A stretch of DNA of 64,000 nt, from assembly GCF_003334785.1 (NCBI RefSeq), contig NZ_QOWV01000013.1, one strand, 5' to 3'. Source of the DNA: Escherichia coli. GTDB lineage: Bacteria; Pseudomonadota; Gammaproteobacteria; Enterobacterales; Enterobacteriaceae. The notes below the pieces were generated by a model. The model worked only from the letters and a program-made list of their open reading frames with translations, was not told the DNA's origin and searched no databases. The position numbers were made by a program, and so were the translations under genes. Below are positions 7,063 through 46,287 of this stretch, piece by piece (the stretch's first letter is position 1; every line of letters begins with the position of its first letter).

Positions 7063-9912
<2,850 letters not shown>

Positions 9913-40848: not shown

Positions 40849-40857
40849 TGTGAAACT

Positions 40858-40933
<76 letters not shown>

Positions 40934-40938
40934 ATTAA

Positions 40939-42204
40939 TTAAGCTTCAGCCGCCAGCATCTCTTTCTTACGTTGGCTAATACGCTTAACCAGCATTACGG
41001 AAACCACCGCACCACTGAATGCGAAGCAGGCCATAATGCCAAACACGATTTTGTAGCCAATAATCCCCGGATTTAAATCCAGAATGTAGCCATACAGACT
41101 GAAGCAGAACATCGCCGGAGCGTAACCAATAAAGCTACCCAACGCCATCGCCGCACCTGTTTTATTTTCAGCAATTTTTGCTTCGCCGATAGGTGCAAAA
41201 AATACGGCTCGCTGTGTAAAGACTATCGCGCCAAAGCCCAGCGTACATGCCATCCCTAAATAGACCGGCATACTTTCGTGCGGCAGCATAATCAACAGTA
41301 CGAGCGCAGCGGTACTAATGATAAAGGTGTAGCATAGATATTTACTTGGCGATTTCAGGATCTTATCTGAAATCATGCCACCAATCGGTCCACCAATCAT
41401 TTTCAGACAGTATTGGTTAATGATGCCGTAAGCCCCCACCAGCGCAACGGGCAATAGATAGATGTTTTTCAGGAATGGAATGAAGAATGTCAGGCCACAG
41501 TAAACCGCGTAAACGAAGAAGACGTTAAAAGCGATAAGCCAGATAGTTTTGTCTTTCAGCACCGAGGTCATACTGGTGTTTTTCGATGCTCCGTCTTCTT
41601 TTTTCACCTCAACGGACGGTGCCTCTTCTTTGTCATTCAGGACAAAGAAAATAATAATGCCTACGGCAATCACAATAAGGGAATAGAACCAGATGCCTGC
41701 TTTAAAACCTAATAAGCCACTGCCAAACCAGGTAAATACTGCCAACGCAGAAAATGCCACCACGGTATCGACAATGCCACGCCCTGTTTCGAAGAAGCCA
41801 AACAACAGACCTTGTTGTTCGCTATTGCCCAATCGACTTACCGACTTGAGCAAGACCGGCCAGTTCATCATGTCGCAAGTAACGCCAAATAGCGCCCAGA
41901 CAAAGAGGATGCCCCAATACCCCGGCATTGTCGTCAAATAAACACCCAGTAATCCTGTCGCAATGAGTGAGAATGACATGGTGTATCTGCGCGGTAGTTT
42001 ATCGGCAAAATAAATAGACAGAAAAAAGCCCACTGTGGTGACAAATGAGTTTACCGACATAGCATTACCAATTTGACCATTGGTCAAATGGAAATATTCC
42101 TGCATCGGGATATAAAACGCATCTTTCAGCGACGGTAATTTATAAATTGTACCGCCACACAGTGTTAATAGACTAAATAACGCCCATTTCTTTTTCGTGA
42201 GCAT
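40939..42204 (-). CDS. yihN: MFS transporter YihN
   Basis: 421-aa polytopic membrane protein. Confidence 0.85.
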   Translation of the reverse strand: MLTKKKWALFSLLTLCGGTIYKLPSLKDAFYIPMQEYFHLTNGQIGNAMSVNSFVTTVGFFLSIYFADKLPRRYTMSFSLIATGLLGVYLTTMPGYWGILFVWALFGVTCDMMNWPVLLKSVSRLGNSEQQGLLFGFFETGRGIVDTVVAFSALAVFTWFGSGLLGFKAGIWFYSLIVIAVGIIIFFVLNDKEEAPSVEVKKEDGASKNTSMTSVLKDKTIWLIAFNVFFVYAVYCGLTFFIPFLKNIYLLPVALVGAYGIINQYCLKMIGGPIGGMISDKILKSPSKYLCYTFIISTAALVLLIMLPHESMPVYLGMACTLGFGAIVFTQRAVFFAPIGEAKIAENKTGAAMALGSFIGYAPAMFCFSLYGYILDLNPGIIGYKIVFGIMACFAFSGAVVSVMLVKRISQRKKEMLAAEA

Positions 42205-42305
42205 AACATCCCCTAAGCGATTTTTAAAATCACTGTTTTAAAGGCAATAAGATACCGACCATTCATATGGAATGGTTTTATTAACTGCGTATGAGTTAAA
42301 ACTTA

Positions 42306-43286
42306 TTAGTGGTTCAGAAGATGGTTTGCCTCTTGTTTGATTTGTTGTAGTACGTTACGCACATGATTTATCTGATTAATTGCATCTTCTTTTTCTTTAC
42401 GTAACCGCGCATCCAGTAAATGATTTTCTGGCAATGGTGTTTCACTCATCTGGCGATAAGGGATCCACGGATTATCATCTTCGTCTTCAAAGCGGAACGC
42501 CGGCGCATAGTAATCAACCTCTTCTTCCAGGCCATATGCCGTCACCTGCGGCTCATCATCACCCAGGCAGATAAGGTGCGTTAATAACGCTTTGAACGGC
42601 ATATCACCCTGACCTGAAATACAGGCTTTATGACCCAGGCCACCCGGTTCTTTAACGATCAAGGCATCTTTGATATGGACCTGGGTAATATGCGGTGCCA
42701 TCGTTTTTAAAGCGTCGATGGGATGCTCATTTGCATTGATCATGTTCGCAAAATCTAACAGTAAGGAAAGAGATTCCATCTCACTTTCTTTGACCAGCGA
42801 CACCAGCTCATGACTTTTTAAATCTTCATGCTGCTCGATCGTAAAAGTCAGGCCGCTGTCCTGATACGTTTCCCGTACATAGGCAATGTCGTTAGCGATA
42901 ATCGATAATACGTCGCGCAAATTACCTTCATAACGTGGATAAAAACGTACGGACGATGCCCCAGTTTTCAACGCGATGGCGACGGCTTCGTCAATAGATG
43001 CCTTATCTGAGGCGCTGGTTTCAATATGAATATCAAGGTTCAGACGGCGGGCTTTATCCCCAAAGGCAGAGAGTTCTTTATCGTCCATATTACCAAGAGA
43101 AAAACGCTCGCCATCGAGAACATGGATTTTGACGCCACGTAGATTATTTTCACTTGCGATATCAAGTAAATCAGCAGGCAACACTCTTTCCAGCCGCATA
43201 TTTAAATGAAAGGCATAAGCATGTAAATAAAGAGGAAGAGTGTCGACACGTTGTAGAATCTTTCTTGCGTTATTTATTGTCACCAT
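42306..43286 (-). CDS. yihM: Sugar-phosphate isomerase/epimerase (xylose-isomerase-like TIM barrel) YihM
   Basis: 326-aa ORF. Confidence 0.82.
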   Translation of the reverse strand: MVTINNARKILQRVDTLPLYLHAYAFHLNMRLERVLPADLLDIASENNLRGVKIHVLDGERFSLGNMDDKELSAFGDKARRLNLDIHIETSASDKASIDEAVAIALKTGASSVRFYPRYEGNLRDVLSIIANDIAYVRETYQDSGLTFTIEQHEDLKSHELVSLVKESEMESLSLLLDFANMINANEHPIDALKTMAPHITQVHIKDALIVKEPGGLGHKACISGQGDMPFKALLTHLICLGDDEPQVTAYGLEEEVDYYAPAFRFEDEDDNPWIPYRQMSETPLPENHLLDARLRKEKEDAINQINHVRNVLQQIKQEANHLLNH

Positions 43287-43293
43287 AAAACAC

Positions 43294-44004
43294 CTACAGA
43301 TTAATGATGAGGTCTACGGCCTCAAATCGCCAATATTCAATATCTATTTGGACAATATTGCCTTGCTGGTCGGCGCGATGCTTTTCAATTAAGATCGCTG
43401 GCATACCCGCAGAACCGCCAAGATACTTGCTGATATCGCCCGGCATTCTGACGGGTTTGAAAATCAATTTTTTTACTACCGTCTCTTTTTGGTAGCACTT
43501 TTCCCAGACTGCAGAAAATGAGTGGTTTTCAAGTTGTTCAATAAAGCCCGGAGCAACTTCAGGATTAATATATGTTTCGTGATAGAAAACTTTATGTCCT
43601 TCCAGCGCCCCCCAGCCGGTGATGCGATAGAGTTCAGTTGATGGCGTCACTGCAATCAGTGGCGCGAGCGTCTCGGGAATATCGCTGGTACGGTTTTTCT
43701 CGGTAAACCCCCAGGAAGGCTCTCGCCCTTGCTCAATTGCGGCCCGCTGAAAGCTCGCCGACAGCTCCGGACTGTAATTAAATCGCGGCTGGGTCACGAA
43801 CCACCCCTTACGATCCTTACGGAAGATTTTGGATTCTGCCTCGAGGTTCAACAACGCCTGGCGCAGCGTCATACGTTTAATGCCCAGCAGTTCTCCCAGC
43901 TCTCTTTCTGAAGGGAGTTTTCCACCCGGCGTGGTGATGCCATCTTTCAACCACCGATCCAGTTTCTCTTTTGCATTTTCTACGGTGGATTGATTCTCCG
44001 CCAT
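43294..44004 (-). CDS. yihL: GntR-family transcriptional regulator YihL
   Basis: 236-aa ORF; N-terminal winged HTH (ERELGELLGIKRMTLRQAL) and UTRA-like C-terminus. Confidence 0.85.
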   Translation of the reverse strand: MAENQSTVENAKEKLDRWLKDGITTPGGKLPSERELGELLGIKRMTLRQALLNLEAESKIFRKDRKGWFVTQPRFNYSPELSASFQRAAIEQGREPSWGFTEKNRTSDIPETLAPLIAVTPSTELYRITGWGALEGHKVFYHETYINPEVAPGFIEQLENHSFSAVWEKCYQKETVVKKLIFKPVRMPGDISKYLGGSAGMPAILIEKHRADQQGNIVQIDIEYWRFEAVDLIINL

Positions 44005-44169
44005 TGTTTAATCCTTTTGGTTTAAACCAGATGAAGCATCTTACGCTTACGCCAAAAAAGAAAGCAATTAACGGCGTATGACTTTGCAGATAATTGTGAC
44101 AAAGCTCTCTATTGACGTAACCACAGACTTATAAGGGAGATACTCGCATTGGTGTGCGCTCACGACAGG

Positions 44170-44204
44170 CAAAAAAAAACCTGCCATCGCTGGCAGGTTT
44201 TTTA
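44170..44204 (-). terminator. Intrinsic terminator of typA (bidirectional shape)
   Basis: A-run, cctgcca-tcgc-tggcagg hairpin, T-run, 17 nt after the typA stop. Confidence 0.75.
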
Positions 44205-44220
44205 TGACTAAAAAACGAAA

Positions 44221-46044
44221 TTAATCGTCTTTCGGTGCGCGGTTGGCGCGGCGACGATCGTTTTCCGTCAGGTGACGTTTACGAATACGGATAGAGGTCG
44301 GAGTCACTTCTACCAGTTCGTCATCATCGATGAACTCCAGAGCTTGTTCCAGAGTCATGCGGATAGGCGGAACCAGAACAACGGCTTCGTCAGTACCGGA
44401 AGCACGCATGTTGGTCAGTTTCTTACCGGTCAGGCAGTTTACAGTCAGGTCGTTAGAGCGGCTATGAATACCGATAATCTGACCTTCGTAAACTTCTGCA
44501 CCGTGACCGAGGAACAGCTTACCGCGATCCTGCAGACCGAACAGCGCGAACGCGACCGCTTTACCCTGACCGTTAGAGATCAGTACGCCGTTCTGACGCT
44601 GACCCACTTCACCCGGACGTACGTCGTCGTAGTGGCTGAAGGTGGAGTACAGCAGACCAGTACCGGAAGTCATGGTCATGAACTCAGAACGGAAGCCAAT
44701 CAGACCACGGCTTGGGATCACGTAGTCGAGACGTACGCGGCCTTTACCGTCTGGATTCATGTTTTTCAGGTCGCCTTTACGTTCGCCCAGCGCCTGCATT
44801 ACAGAACCCTGATGCTGTTCTTCAACGTCCAGAGTCACGTTTTCATACGGCTCTTGTTTACGACCGTCGATTTCACGGAAGATAACTTTCGGACGGGATA
44901 CCGCCAGTTCGAAACCTTCACGACGCATGTTTTCGATCAGAACAGACAGGTGCAGTTCGCCACGACCAGAAACGCGGAACGCATCGGCGTCTTCGGTTTC
45001 TTCTACGCGCAGCGCAACGTTGTGTACCAGTTCTTTGTTCAGACGATCCAGGATCTGACGAGACGTTACGAACTTACCTTCTTTACCGCAGAACGGCGAG
45101 GTGTTAACGCAGAAGAACATAGAAACGGTCGGCTCATCAACGGAGAGTGCCGGCAGCGCTTCAACGTTTTGCGTGTCGCAAACGGTGTCAGAAATGTTCA
45201 GTTCGCCAAGGCCCGTGATCGCAACGATATCGCCAGCTTCCGCCAGATCGGTTTCGATACGTTCCAGACCGAGGTGGCCCAGCACTTTACCGACTTTCGC
45301 GTTGCGGGTTTTGCCTTCGCTATCGATGATAGTGACCTGCTGGTTCGGCTTCACTTTACCGCGCTTGATGCGGCCAATGCCGATAACGCCAACATAGCTG
45401 TTGTAATCGAGCTGAGAAATCTGCATCTGGAACGGACCGTCAAGGTCAACGTCCGGCGCAGGAACGTGGTCAACAATCGCCTGGTACAGCGGGGTCATGT
45501 CTTCCGCCATATCTTCGTGGTCCAGACCCGCGATACCGTTCAGCGCAGAAGCGTAAACGATCGGGAAGTCCAGCTGCTCGTCGGTCGCGTCGAGGTTAAC
45601 GAACAGATCGAATACCTGATCCACAACCCAATCAGGACGCGCGCCAGGGCGGTCAACTTTGTTGATAACAACAATCGGCTTCAGGCCGTAAGCAAACGCT
45701 TTTTTGGTTACGAAGCGCGTTTGCGGCATCGGGCCGTCAAATGCGTCAACCACCAGCAGCACTGAGTCTACCATGGACATTACACGTTCAACTTCACCAC
45801 CGAAGTCGGCGTGCCCCGGGGTATCAACGATGTTGATACGGTAATCATTCCATTTGATAGCGGTGTTTTTCGCGAGGATGGTAATCCCACGCTCTTTCTC
45901 CAAATCGTTGGAGTCCATCACGCGCTCTTGGGTTTCGGCACGAGAGTCGAACGTACCGGATTGTTGGAGCAGCTTGTCTACCAGGGTGGTTTTACCATGG
46001 TCTACGTGCGCGATGATGGCGATATTACGCAATTTTTCGATCAC
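44221..46044 (-). CDS. typA: Ribosome-associated translational GTPase TypA/BipA
   Basis: 607-aa [29 protein letters not shown]; G-domain motifs ([21 protein letters not shown]). Confidence 0.95.
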
Positions 46045-46195
46045 AACTTTGCCTCAGGCATTAGAAATAGCGCGTTATTGTACACGGATTAATCGCACTA
46101 CAAAACAGGATCACAAACATCCTCCGCAAACAAGTATTGCAGAGTCCCTTTGTGATCGCTTTCACGGAGCATAAAAAGGGTTATCCAAAGGTCAT

Positions 46196-46287
46196 TGCAC
46201 CAACATGGTGCTTAATGTTTCCATTGAAGCACTATATTGGTGCAACATTCACATCGTGGTGCAGCCCTTTTGCACGATGGTGCGCAT
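46196..46287. promoter_or_regulatory. NtrC binding sites upstream of glnAp2
   Basis: Repeated TGCACCA-N-TGGTGC dyads: tgcaccaacatggtgct, gcactatattggtgcaa, tggtgcagcccttttgcacgatggtgcgca. Confidence 0.8.

What the first reader, a model, noticed from the sequence alone, without database searches (positions are those of the whole stretch)
40939..44004. yihLMN: regulator-enzyme-transporter module of unknown substrate
A GntR/UTRA-type regulator (yihL), a xylose-isomerase-like TIM-barrel sugar-phosphate isomerase/epimerase (yihM) and an MFS transporter (yihN) are co-directional and tightly spaced, the architecture of a small catabolic or salvage module. To my knowledge the substrate is unassigned. 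It borders the sulfoquinovose cluster but reads as a separate unit.
Basis: partly seen in the sequence, partly recalled or inferred. Interest (0 to 1): 0.4.

Follow-up and report, generated by a model that had tools for sequence, protein, structure and literature searches.

The report
Orphan yihLMN catabolic gene cassette
Three adjacent E. coli genes (a repressor, a metal-dependent barrel enzyme and a membrane importer) form a self-contained, transferable nutrient-use cassette that switches itself off through a conserved DNA site; which nutrient it handles is still unknown, but it is probably a small nitrogen-containing acid.

Summary
On the minus strand of an almost K-12-identical E. coli window lie yihL (43294-44004, GntR+UTRA), yihM (42306-43286, xylose-isomerase-like TIM barrel) and yihN (40939-42204, MFS). 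I found no functional assignment in the searchable literature.

What this work adds:
- The L>M>N order recurs in about 60 genomes from many genera, with unrelated flanks.
- About 19% of complete E. coli genomes lack yihM. In the one such genome examined, the slot holds a different gene block.
- A perfect palindrome, TGGTTTAAACCA, sits 14 nt upstream of yihL. It is conserved in 59 of 62 loci and coincides with the single strong published YihL ChIP-exo peak, so the module is autorepressed.
- YihM belongs to a small uncharacterised family that keeps an E-D-H-E metal site. Its closest solved relatives are the isomerase Art22 and the dehydratase AsbF.

In other lineages the cassette recruits:
- RidA imine deaminases
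- a histidinol-phosphatase-like enzyme
- Na/Pi-type transporters
- aminoethylphosphonate-type ABC importers
- MocR regulators

YihL's nearest relative is PhnR. The substrate is therefore probably a small amine-bearing anion, possibly containing phosphorus, but this is inference only. This is an ordinary kind of system with an unknown reaction, and the interest is moderate.

The parts
43294..44004 (-). yihL: HutC-subfamily GntR repressor (winged-helix domain plus UTRA effector domain)
   Evidence: ORF. Pfam GntR plus UTRA. The best NCBIfam hit is PhnR, 183 bits, below the 297-bit cut-off. It is 33% identical to Salmonella PhnR over both domains.
42306..43286 (-). yihM: metal-dependent xylose-isomerase-like TIM-barrel enzyme of an uncharacterised family. 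A C-terminal extension (residues ~255-326) ends in a long helix.
40939..42204 (-). yihN: 12-TM MFS transporter, the presumed importer of the substrate
   Evidence: Pfam MFS_1. Distant profile relation to GlpT/UhpT, but without their substrate-binding Arg. A knockout lowers dye uptake (PMC8131027).
44018..44029 (.). YihL operator: the perfect palindrome TGGTTTAAACCA, 14 nt upstream of the yihL ATG
   Evidence: Unique exact match in the window. Present upstream of the yihL ortholog in 59 of 62 loci. Coincides with the YihL ChIP-exo peak of S/N 60 (PMC8464067 supplement).
44038..44067 (-). Inferred sigma-70 promoter of yihL: -35 TTGCTT (44067-44062), 18-nt spacer, -10 TAAGAT (44043-44038). This places the operator at about +3 to +14.
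   Evidence: Read from the sequence. A -10-like hexamer lies 8-11 nt upstream of the operator in Aeromonas and Serratia as well. A SELEX RpoD holoenzyme site lies between typA and yihL (PMC3946193). The promoter was not mapped here, and the consensus scan did not call it.
44095..44110 (.). Weak CRP-like site TGTGACAAAGCTCTCT (2 mismatches), centred about -71.5 from the inferred start
   Evidence: matches of this quality occur at chance frequency in the window. Its only support is the transcriptome-based prediction of Crp activation of yihLM (PMC8085971).
42259..42275 (-). Hairpin 1 in the yihM-yihN spacer: CCATTC-N5-GAATGG
   Evidence: Conserved in 12 Enterobacteriaceae loci, 7 pairs, 3 of them with a compensatory change. 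Function unknown; it has no U-tract.
42216..42234 (-). Hairpin 2, directly 5' of the yihN Shine-Dalgarno sequence
   Evidence: The stem sequence differs between genera but pairs in 8 of the 9 loci folded (dG -4.5 to -9.0 kcal/mol); the ninth, L016, gives only 4 pairs at -1.0. Function unknown.
40856..44209 (.). Extent of the replaceable cassette. It contains REP elements, yihN, yihM, yihL, its promoter/operator and the typA terminator hairpin (44171-44197).
   Evidence: Homology to UPEC-774U stops at 40855 and resumes at 44210. That genome carries an STM4010-4015-like block instead.

Best explanation
yihLMN is a self-contained, horizontally exchangeable, substrate-inducible catabolic cassette.

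Regulation (shown). YihL, a HutC-type GntR repressor, sits on the palindrome TGGTTTAAACCA just downstream of its own promoter. The binding site is shown; that it keeps yihL-yihM, and probably yihN, off until a small molecule binds its UTRA domain is inferred from family behaviour.

Transport and catalysis (inferred). YihN imports the compound. YihM holds a divalent metal on E151/D178/H204/E252, with H153, K206 and R114 placed as in the dehydratase AsbF. It enolises a carbonyl or carboxylate-adjacent carbon and then isomerises or beta-eliminates. One step would turn the compound into products that core metabolism can use, which would explain why a single enzyme suffices.

Substrate (inferred from context only). 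Most likely a small amine-bearing anionic compound, possibly a phosphate ester or phosphonate. The reaction would release ammonia through an imine or enamine.
For: Cassette:
- The L>M>N order is conserved in about 60 loci with unrelated flanks.
- 1,038 of 5,426 complete E. coli genomes have no yihM match, and the one examined carries a different block in the slot.

Repression:
- The operator is conserved in 59 of 62 loci, with four copies between divergent operons in Oceanospirillales.
- A ChIP-exo site of S/N 60 lies on it; the only other sites have S/N about 5.

Enzyme:
- Confident TIM-barrel model.
- Nearest solved relatives are Art22, then epimerases, IolI/IolE and AsbF; endonuclease IV ranks lower.
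- AsbF's E-x-H, D, H-x-K and Arg motifs align with invariant YihM residues.

Amine in the substrate:
- RidA was inserted independently into the operon in Photobacterium and in Proteus.
- Rhizobia use MocR-type regulators, which sense amines.
- Rhizobia and two beta-proteobacteria use PotD/PhnS-type ABC importers.
- An agmatinase-family gene or a SugE/Gdx-like gene lies next to yihM homologs in two lineages.

Phosphorus in the substrate:
- YihL's nearest paralog family is PhnR.
- The rhizobial ABC ATPase scores 434 bits against PhnT2 (cut-off 458).
- A HisN-like phosphatase lies directly downstream of yihM homologs in the rhizobial loci and in one Rhodobacterales locus.
- A Na/Pi-cotransporter-family gene is adjacent in two lineages.
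Against: - No experiment links any compound to the module.
- RidA occurs only in the paralogous 'type 2' cassettes, about 60% identical to the E. coli proteins. The phosphatase occurs only with 45%-identical homologs. The chemistry may therefore not transfer to E. coli.
- YihN lacks the phosphate-binding arginine of GlpT/UhpT: R269 aligns with the invariant Y235.
- Oceanospirillales pair the enzyme with an NCS1 transporter and a Dpp/NikA-type transporter. These families are not known for phosphate esters.
- I saw no Pho box upstream of yihL by eye.
- PhnR identity is only 33%.
- Other single-locus neighbours point elsewhere: shikimate dehydrogenase, HutF, betA.
- Inclusion of yihN in the transcript is not documented.
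Confidence: 0.5

Rival explanations
1. A plain sugar or sugar-phosphate module, as the annotation implies. YihN would import a rare ketose or sugar phosphate. YihM would epimerise or isomerise it into a sugar that existing E. coli pathways take over.
For: - The fold and metal site are those of ketose 3-epimerases and UlaE.
- HutC-type regulators often sense sugar phosphates, and the closest solved regulators are NagR/YvoA and DasR.
- Crp activation is predicted.
- YihN is distantly related to sugar-phosphate antiporters.
Against: - No kinase, aldolase or dehydrogenase ever accompanies the cassette.
- The recruited accessory genes are RidA, MocR regulators, polyamine/aminoethylphosphonate-type ABC systems and ureohydrolases, not sugar genes.
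- NCBIfam scores to known epimerases are negligible.
- Profile similarity is higher to the dehydratase AsbF than to epimerases.
Confidence: 0.18
2. A phosphodiester module for lipid head groups such as glycerophosphocholine or glycerophosphoethanolamine. YihM would act hydrolytically, as endonuclease IV (a member of the same fold) does, and release an amino alcohol plus a phosphate monoester.
For: - The layout of ABC importer, enzyme and IMPase-family phosphatase mirrors, from my memory, the agrocinopine acc operon.
- betA (choline dehydrogenase) lies beside the rhizobial cluster, and a related oxidoreductase plus aldehyde dehydrogenase lie beside L087.
- The eut operon is the divergent neighbour in Morganella.
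- PhnR and PhnS/PhnT2 resemble proteins that recognise aminoethyl-phosphoryl groups.
- From memory only, TCDB groups YihN with the Mycoplasma glycerophosphocholine permease GlpU. I could not test this.
Against: - It has the four-ligand isomerase-type site; a His-rich three-metal site was not aligned explicitly.
- RidA would be unexplained.
- E. coli already has GlpQ and UgpQ.
- The neighbour evidence is one locus type each.
Confidence: 0.1
3. A dehydratase module for a carbocyclic or keto-acid substrate resembling 3-dehydroshikimate, with YihM working as AsbF/QuiC do.
For: - AsbF is the second-best solved relative by profile (3.3e-15), with catalytic motifs aligned.
- A 45%-identical homolog sits next to a shikimate dehydrogenase and a TAXI-type binding protein.
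Against: - E. coli, Morganella and Proteus are not known to degrade protocatechuate (my own knowledge), so the product would be a dead end.
- No aromatic-catabolism genes accompany the cassette.
- The amine-related recruitments are unexplained.
- The shikimate link is a single locus.
Confidence: 0.08
4. In E. coli the cassette is cryptic or decaying and has no current physiological substrate. The phenotypes of yihN mutants would reflect unspecific uptake of cationic dyes.
For: - 19% of complete genomes lack yihM.
- Several genomes carry IS insertions in the cassette.
- This window carries R133L in an invariant YihN motif and F177L in YihM.
- A yihN knockout lowers uptake of many unrelated dyes.
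Against: - All three ORFs are intact in over 4,000 genomes at 95-100% identity.
- The operator is perfectly conserved and occupied in vivo.
- The cassette is kept across many genera.
Confidence: 0.08

Closest known systems
PhnR and the 2-aminoethylphosphonate utilisation locus of Salmonella (phnR-phnSTUV, phnWX)
   Same: YihL is a HutC-type GntR/UTRA regulator whose nearest non-orthologous relatives are PhnR proteins: 33% identity over both domains, and 183 bits to TIGR03337. In rhizobia the YihM homolog is served by an ABC system closest to the PhnS/PhnT2 models.
   Different: The score is below the PhnR cut-off of 297. No phnW, phnX or phnSTUV genes accompany yihLMN. The enzyme is a TIM barrel unrelated to the transaminase and phosphonatase. 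The importer in E. coli is an MFS protein.
frlABCDR (fructoselysine) and nagR/dasR-type HutC-regulated amino-sugar operons
   Same: Both have a GntR/UTRA repressor acting on a GT-N-TA-N-AC type palindrome, a dedicated transporter and, in frl, a xylose-isomerase-like TIM-barrel enzyme (FrlC; from my own knowledge). The closest solved regulators are NagR/YvoA and DasR.
   Different: yihLMN has no kinase or deglycase; one enzyme has to do the whole conversion. YihM is not close to any curated epimerase family.
AsbF/QuiC 3-dehydroshikimate dehydratases and the isomerase Art22 (PDB 3dx5, 8z1i)
   Different: Only 15-20% identity. YihM has a family-specific C-terminal extension with invariant R265, S281 and E298. 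Its genomic context is unrelated to siderophore or aromatic pathways.
GlpT/UhpT/PgtP organophosphate:phosphate antiporters
   Same: YihN is an MFS protein whose best NCBIfam hit is the PgtP subfamily (2.4e-19). The profile-profile relation to GlpT/UhpT has probability 99%.
   Different: The score is far below the cut-off (70 vs 408 bits). GlpT R269 aligns with an invariant Tyr, and K80 and H165 are not kept. There is no PDB hit at E<0.01.

Membership tests
GntR family, HutC subfamily | N-terminal GntR winged helix-turn-helix plus C-terminal UTRA effector domain | tested here: met
   Pfam PF00392 at residues 8-70 (1.7e-19) and PF07702 at residues 91-230 (1.6e-21).
GntR family, HutC subfamily | Binds a palindromic operator of the GT-N-TA-N-AC type near its own or target promoter | tested here: met
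   TGGTTTAAACCA lies 14 nt upstream of yihL and is conserved in 59 of 62 loci. The published ChIP-exo peak lies on it. Direct binding to this exact sequence was not assayed here.
PhnR (TIGR03337, equivalog) | Score at or above the curated cut-off, and location in or beside 2-aminoethylphosphonate catabolic genes | tested here: not met
   183.4 bits against a cut-off of 296.75. The neighbours are yihM and yihN, not phnSTUV or phnWX.
Xylose-isomerase-like TIM barrel (Pfam PF01261) | (beta/alpha)8 barrel with the family's Glu-Asp-His-Glu metal ligands at the strand ends | tested here: met
Known enzymes of that fold (UlaE/SgbU epimerase, IolE dehydratase) | Match to the curated family model above its cut-off | tested here: not met
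   IolE 16 bits (cut-off 290) and L-ribulose-5-P 3-epimerase 15 bits (cut-off 200).
3-dehydroshikimate dehydratase (AsbF/QuiC type) | Catalytic E-x-H and H-x-K motifs plus a carboxylate-binding Arg; association with quinate/shikimate or siderophore genes | tested here: inconclusive
   The motifs align with E151-x-H153, H204-x-K206 and R114. Only one distant homolog lies next to a shikimate dehydrogenase, and none of the L-M-N cassettes does.
Endonuclease IV type phosphodiesterases | His-rich trinuclear zinc site | tested here: inconclusive
Major facilitator superfamily | MFS_1 profile over two six-helix halves | tested here: met
   PF07690, 4.8e-26, residues 33-364.
Organophosphate:phosphate antiporter family (GlpT/UhpT/PgtP) | Family model above cut-off; conserved arginine pair in TM1 and TM7 that binds phosphate | tested here: not met
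   69.6 bits against a cut-off of 407.75. GlpT R269 aligns with the invariant Y235 of YihN, and TM1 did not align.
Sulfoquinovose (yihO-yihW, ompL) cluster | Co-inheritance with the sulfoglycolysis genes | tested here: not met
   The cassette occurs without those genes in Aeromonas, Serratia, Morganella, Hafnia and others. In a UPEC genome it is replaced while ompL-yihO stays. Regulation by CsqR was not tested.

The most novel reading that the evidence does not exclude
YihM is the founding member of a new enzyme activity in the xylose-isomerase-like superfamily: a cofactor-free, metal-dependent lyase or deaminating isomerase. In one step it would break down a small amino-phosphate, aminophosphonate or amino-sugar-phosphate compound to a central metabolite plus ammonia, and possibly phosphate. 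That would give enteric bacteria a one-enzyme route which in known pathways needs pyridoxal-phosphate enzymes or several steps.
Probability: 0.2. Interest if true: 0.65.

Novelty: new member of a known kind. Interest (0 to 1): 0.4.

Why it matters
yihLMN is one of the remaining uncharacterised operons of E. coli K-12. The same cassette is carried by many gut and environmental Proteobacteria, including Citrobacter, Klebsiella aerogenes, Serratia, Morganella, Proteus and Aeromonas.

Assigning its substrate would remove three genes from the list of unknown E. coli genes. It would name a nutrient that these bacteria take up, and would probably define a new reaction for a small, distinct enzyme family.

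This work makes the question directly testable. It supplies a defined operator, one dominant regulatory target, a short list of candidate ligand classes, and simple read-outs (ammonia or phosphate release).

Tried and rejected
- **Published function.** Literature searches for a function of yihL, yihM or yihN found nothing beyond screens, strain markers and candidate lists. Searches for Art22 found no paper.
- **Phosphonate papers.** The two phosphonate-catabolism papers searched do not contain the term 'TIM barrel' or a related enzyme of this kind.
- **Curated families.** YihM has no informative NCBIfam match.
- **Fold searches.** Searches of PDB and AFDB50 returned only uncharacterised close relatives and generic isomerases and epimerases.
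- **YihN as a phosphate antiporter.** This idea failed the arginine test.
- **Distant homolog contigs.** Contigs for P0123, P0126 and P0129 were too short to show context.
- **Promoters and terminators.** The consensus scan found nothing above chance and did not call the inferred yihL promoter.
- **RNA families.** The Rfam scan found no riboswitch in the module.
- **Flanking genes.** Flanks of the cassettes in Citrobacter and Buttiauxella are unrelated genes: yiiM, cpxAR, narK/narX and tyrosine phenol-lyase.
- **Histidine-related substrate.** I considered this because of the HisN-like, HutF and agmatinase/HutG-family neighbours. I judged it over-reading of single loci.
- **Metagenome scan.** Not run. 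Extra contexts of distant homologs were unlikely to settle the E. coli substrate at that cost.
Full report
**Observation.** The window is E. coli chromosome. It is about 99.97% identical to strain JKHS016 over the 3.7-kb query (one mismatch, shown as 100.0%) and differs from K-12 MG1655 by three SNPs over 16 kb. Three ORFs lie on the minus strand at the stated coordinates:
- yihL, 43294-44004, 236 aa
- yihM, 42306-43286, 326 aa
- yihN, 40939-42204, 421 aa

Pfam gives GntR+UTRA, a weak AP_endonuc_2 (xylose-isomerase-like TIM barrel) hit, and MFS_1 respectively. RefSeq annotates them the same way. yihL and yihM are 7 nt apart; yihM and yihN are 101 nt apart. typA lies upstream on the same strand, with its own terminator hairpin at 44171-44197. 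ompL is convergent downstream.

**A unit, and a separate one.**
- YihM relatives are few: 47 representatives below 1e-30 among 1.84 billion clusters.
- I fetched 80 genome loci plus loci around individual homologs, called ORFs and clustered them.
- The order L>M>N recurs in about 60 loci from Escherichia, Citrobacter, Klebsiella/Raoultella, Serratia, Hafnia, Buttiauxella, Morganella, Edwardsiella, Aeromonas, Photobacterium, Neisseriaceae and Acinetobacter.
- The flanks differ from genus to genus: eut genes in Morganella, thiamine genes in Serratia, narK/narX in Buttiauxella, cpxAR or tyrosine phenol-lyase in Citrobacter. Some Citrobacter genomes carry two paralogous cassettes.
- Within E. coli, yihM is present in 4,388 of 5,426 complete genomes.
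- In a uropathogenic strain without it, the segment 40856-44209 is replaced by a six-gene STM4010-4015-like block. ompL, yihO and typA stay in place.

**Regulation.**
- A perfect 12-bp palindrome, TGGTTTAAACCA, lies at 44018-44029, 14 nt upstream of the yihL start codon. It is the only exact copy in the window.
- The same core (GGTTTA[A/T]ACC) lies upstream of the yihL ortholog in 59 of 62 loci, although the surrounding DNA cannot be aligned.
- In Marinobacterium and an Oceanospirillaceae genome, four copies fill the divergent region between a Dpp/NikA-type ABC operon and the L-M-transporter operon.
- It fits the GT-N-TA-N-AC operator type of HutC-family regulators (family knowledge).
- The ChIP-exo survey of Gao et al. 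(PMC8464067, supplementary file 5) lists three YihL sites. One is strong (S/N 60) at 4058436-4058459; the two others have S/N about 5.
- Those coordinates fit the older K-12 reference, which is 1,977 bp shorter. On that basis they correspond to about -34 to -11 of the yihL start in the current numbering, centred on the palindrome.
- YihL therefore binds its own promoter region in vivo, and essentially nothing else.
- An inferred promoter (TTGCTT, 18 nt, TAAGAT; 44067-44038) would put the operator at about +3 to +14, a repressing position. This is read from the sequence. The consensus scan did not call it, though an RNA polymerase SELEX site is reported between typA and yihL.
- A transcriptome study predicts Crp activation of 'yihLM'. 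I found only a weak CRP-like site at 44095-44110.
- Both papers list the transcription unit as yihLM, so co-transcription of yihN is open.

**The yihM-yihN spacer.** It has no terminator-like site. It does hold two stem-loops that are conserved, with compensatory changes, across Enterobacteriaceae. One lies directly before the yihN ribosome-binding site. Their role is unknown.

**The enzyme.**
- An alignment of 27 family members shows these invariant residues: G51, S91, R114, E151, H153, E154, E160, D178, N181, P189, H204, R265, S281 and E298. K206 is nearly invariant and E252 is mostly conserved.
- The AlphaFold model is confident (pLDDT 95.9). It is a (beta/alpha)8 barrel with a C-terminal extension ending in a long helix.
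- By sequence profile the order is Art22 (1.7e-19), then AsbF, a 3-dehydroshikimate dehydratase (3.3e-15). AsbF's E-x-H, D, H-x-K and Arg motifs align with invariant YihM residues.
- No curated family matches, and the AlphaFold database holds only unnamed close relatives.
- The safest reading is a divalent-metal enzyme that enolises its substrate and then isomerises, epimerises or eliminates. A hydrolytic, endonuclease-IV-like mechanism is less likely but not excluded.

**The transporter.** YihN is an MFS protein. Its best curated relative is the PgtP/organophosphate antiporter subfamily, far below cut-off. A profile comparison with GlpT, UhpT and UhpC confirms a distant relation (probability 99%, 20% identity). 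However, the essential GlpT R269 aligns with an invariant tyrosine, and K80 and H165 are not kept. YihN is therefore not a canonical phosphate antiporter. Its invariant charged residues include K22, D111, E139, R142, D146, R332 and E341. A yihN knockout takes up less of many fluorescent dyes (PMC8131027), which argues for an importer but says little about the natural substrate.

**What the substrate might be.** There is no direct evidence. The clues come from what the L-M core recruits in other lineages.

1. Links to nitrogen:
   - A RidA-family imine/enamine deaminase sits inside the operon in three Photobacterium species and, in a different position, in Proteus.
   - Rhizobia replace YihL with a MocR-type regulator; this family senses amines through bound pyridoxal phosphate (family knowledge).
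   - Rhizobia, Pseudogulbenkiania and Crenobacter replace YihN with an ABC system of the polyamine/aminoethylphosphonate group.
   - An agmatinase-family gene follows the yihM homolog in a Rhodobacteraceae genome, and a SugE/Gdx-like exporter precedes it in Crenobacter.

2. Links to phosphorus:
   - YihL's nearest relatives outside its own orthologs are true PhnR regulators of 2-aminoethylphosphonate use.
   - The rhizobial ABC ATPase scores 434 bits against the PhnT2 model (cut-off 458). Its binding protein hits only the PhnS models, weakly.
   - A histidinol-phosphatase-like IMPase-family gene lies directly after the yihM homolog in the rhizobial loci and in one Rhodobacterales locus.
   - A Na/Pi-cotransporter-family gene is adjacent in Pseudogulbenkiania, whose YihM is 63% identical to the E. 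coli protein, and in Ensifer.

3. Single-locus neighbours that point in other directions:
   - betA next to the Ensifer cluster
   - eut next to the Morganella cassette
   - shikimate dehydrogenase
   - hutF

Caveats on these clues:
- RidA is confined to the paralogous 'type 2' cassettes.
- The phosphatase is confined to 45%-identical homologs.
- Oceanospirillales use NCS1 and Dpp-type transporters.
- I saw no Pho box by eye.

Taken together, a small amine-bearing anion, possibly a phosphate ester or phosphonate, is the best guess. The expected products are ammonia, released via an imine or enamine, and a central metabolite. A one-enzyme conversion would explain why no kinase, aldolase or dehydrogenase ever travels with the cassette.

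**Rivals.**
- A rare sugar or sugar phosphate.
- Glycerophosphodiesters cleaved hydrolytically.
- A 3-dehydroshikimate-like acid.
- A cryptic, decaying cassette.

**Comparison with known systems.** The architecture is that of an ordinary HutC-regulated catabolic operon such as frl, nag or phnR-phnSTUV. YihL is a member of the HutC subfamily but not a PhnR. YihM is a member of the xylose-isomerase-like superfamily but of no characterised family. YihN is an MFS protein but not an organophosphate antiporter. The finding is a new member of a known kind of system with an unknown reaction.

**Verdict.** The literature I could search, up to mid-2026, contains no assignment. Interest is moderate. The kind of system would not surprise a specialist. 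The module is nonetheless a well-defined E. coli orphan that is now easy to attack experimentally, and there is a fair chance that the enzyme activity is new.

Noticed in passing
window 41807 (yihN codon 133): The window carries CTG (Leu) where K-12, JKHS016 and all 21 aligned YihN orthologs from gamma-, beta- and alpha-proteobacteria have Arg, in the invariant motif QGR(L/M/I)FG(F/Y)(F/L)E(T/A/G)GRG. None of the 4,301 complete E. coli genomes with a yihN match appears to be identical to the window's copy (the best-ranked hits are all 99.9%). It is probably a private damaging variant or a sequencing error.
   Followed up: partly
window 42756 (yihM codon 177): The window and JKHS016 have Leu where K-12 has Phe; nearly all family members have Phe or Tyr at this position (motif L[FY]DF, next to the metal ligand D178). 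The effect is unknown.
   Followed up: partly
window 42216-42234 and 42259-42275 (minus strand): Two stem-loops in the yihM-yihN spacer are conserved across Enterobacteriaceae with compensatory base changes. One abuts the yihN ribosome-binding site. Neither has a U-tract. They could be a processing, stability or translational control element.
   Followed up: partly
window 40856-44209; locus L095 1438-6974: In a UPEC genome without yihLMN, the typA-ompL slot holds a Salmonella-like block instead. It encodes the STM4015, STM4014 and STM4013 family proteins, two radical SAM proteins and a Cof-type HAD hydrolase, all of unknown function. About 19% of complete E. coli genomes have no yihM match; whether they all carry this block was not checked.
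   Followed up: partly
E. coli genomes listed: Several complete genomes carry IS903B, IS4, IS30 or ISVsa5 insertions inside yihL, yihM or yihN. One strain (HS-01) has a deletion from yihQ to yihM that leaves yihL alone.
   Followed up: no
window 44168-44236, 46126-46233, 40852-40924: Rfam matches: STnc370 on the typA terminator region (55.6 bits, just above gathering); ES222 sRNA between glnA and typA (135 bits); and below-threshold naRNA4/REP elements between yihN and ompL.
   Followed up: no
loci L068, L071, L080 (about 7115-7210): Four tandemly spaced copies of the YihL-type palindrome, 19-27 bp apart, lie between a divergent Dpp/NikA-type ABC operon and the yihL-yihM-NCS1 operon. There the regulator seems to control two transport systems.
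   Followed up: partly
proteins P0134, P0138, P0205, P0218, P0224: Distant YihM homologs (about 28-39% identity) carry N-terminal signal or lipoprotein-like sequences. Three of them (P0205, P0218, P0224) also have a long C-terminal extension ending in a shared SPPL(Y/F) motif. This suggests secreted relatives with a different role.
   Followed up: no
loci L047-L049, L053, L057, L061, L063, L066, L069: Citrobacter and relatives hold up to two extra paralogous L-M-N cassettes, about 60% identical to the E. coli proteins. Their operator variants differ slightly (ATTGGTTTAAACCAGA, ATTGGTTTATACCAGA), which implies a small family of related substrates.
   Followed up: partly
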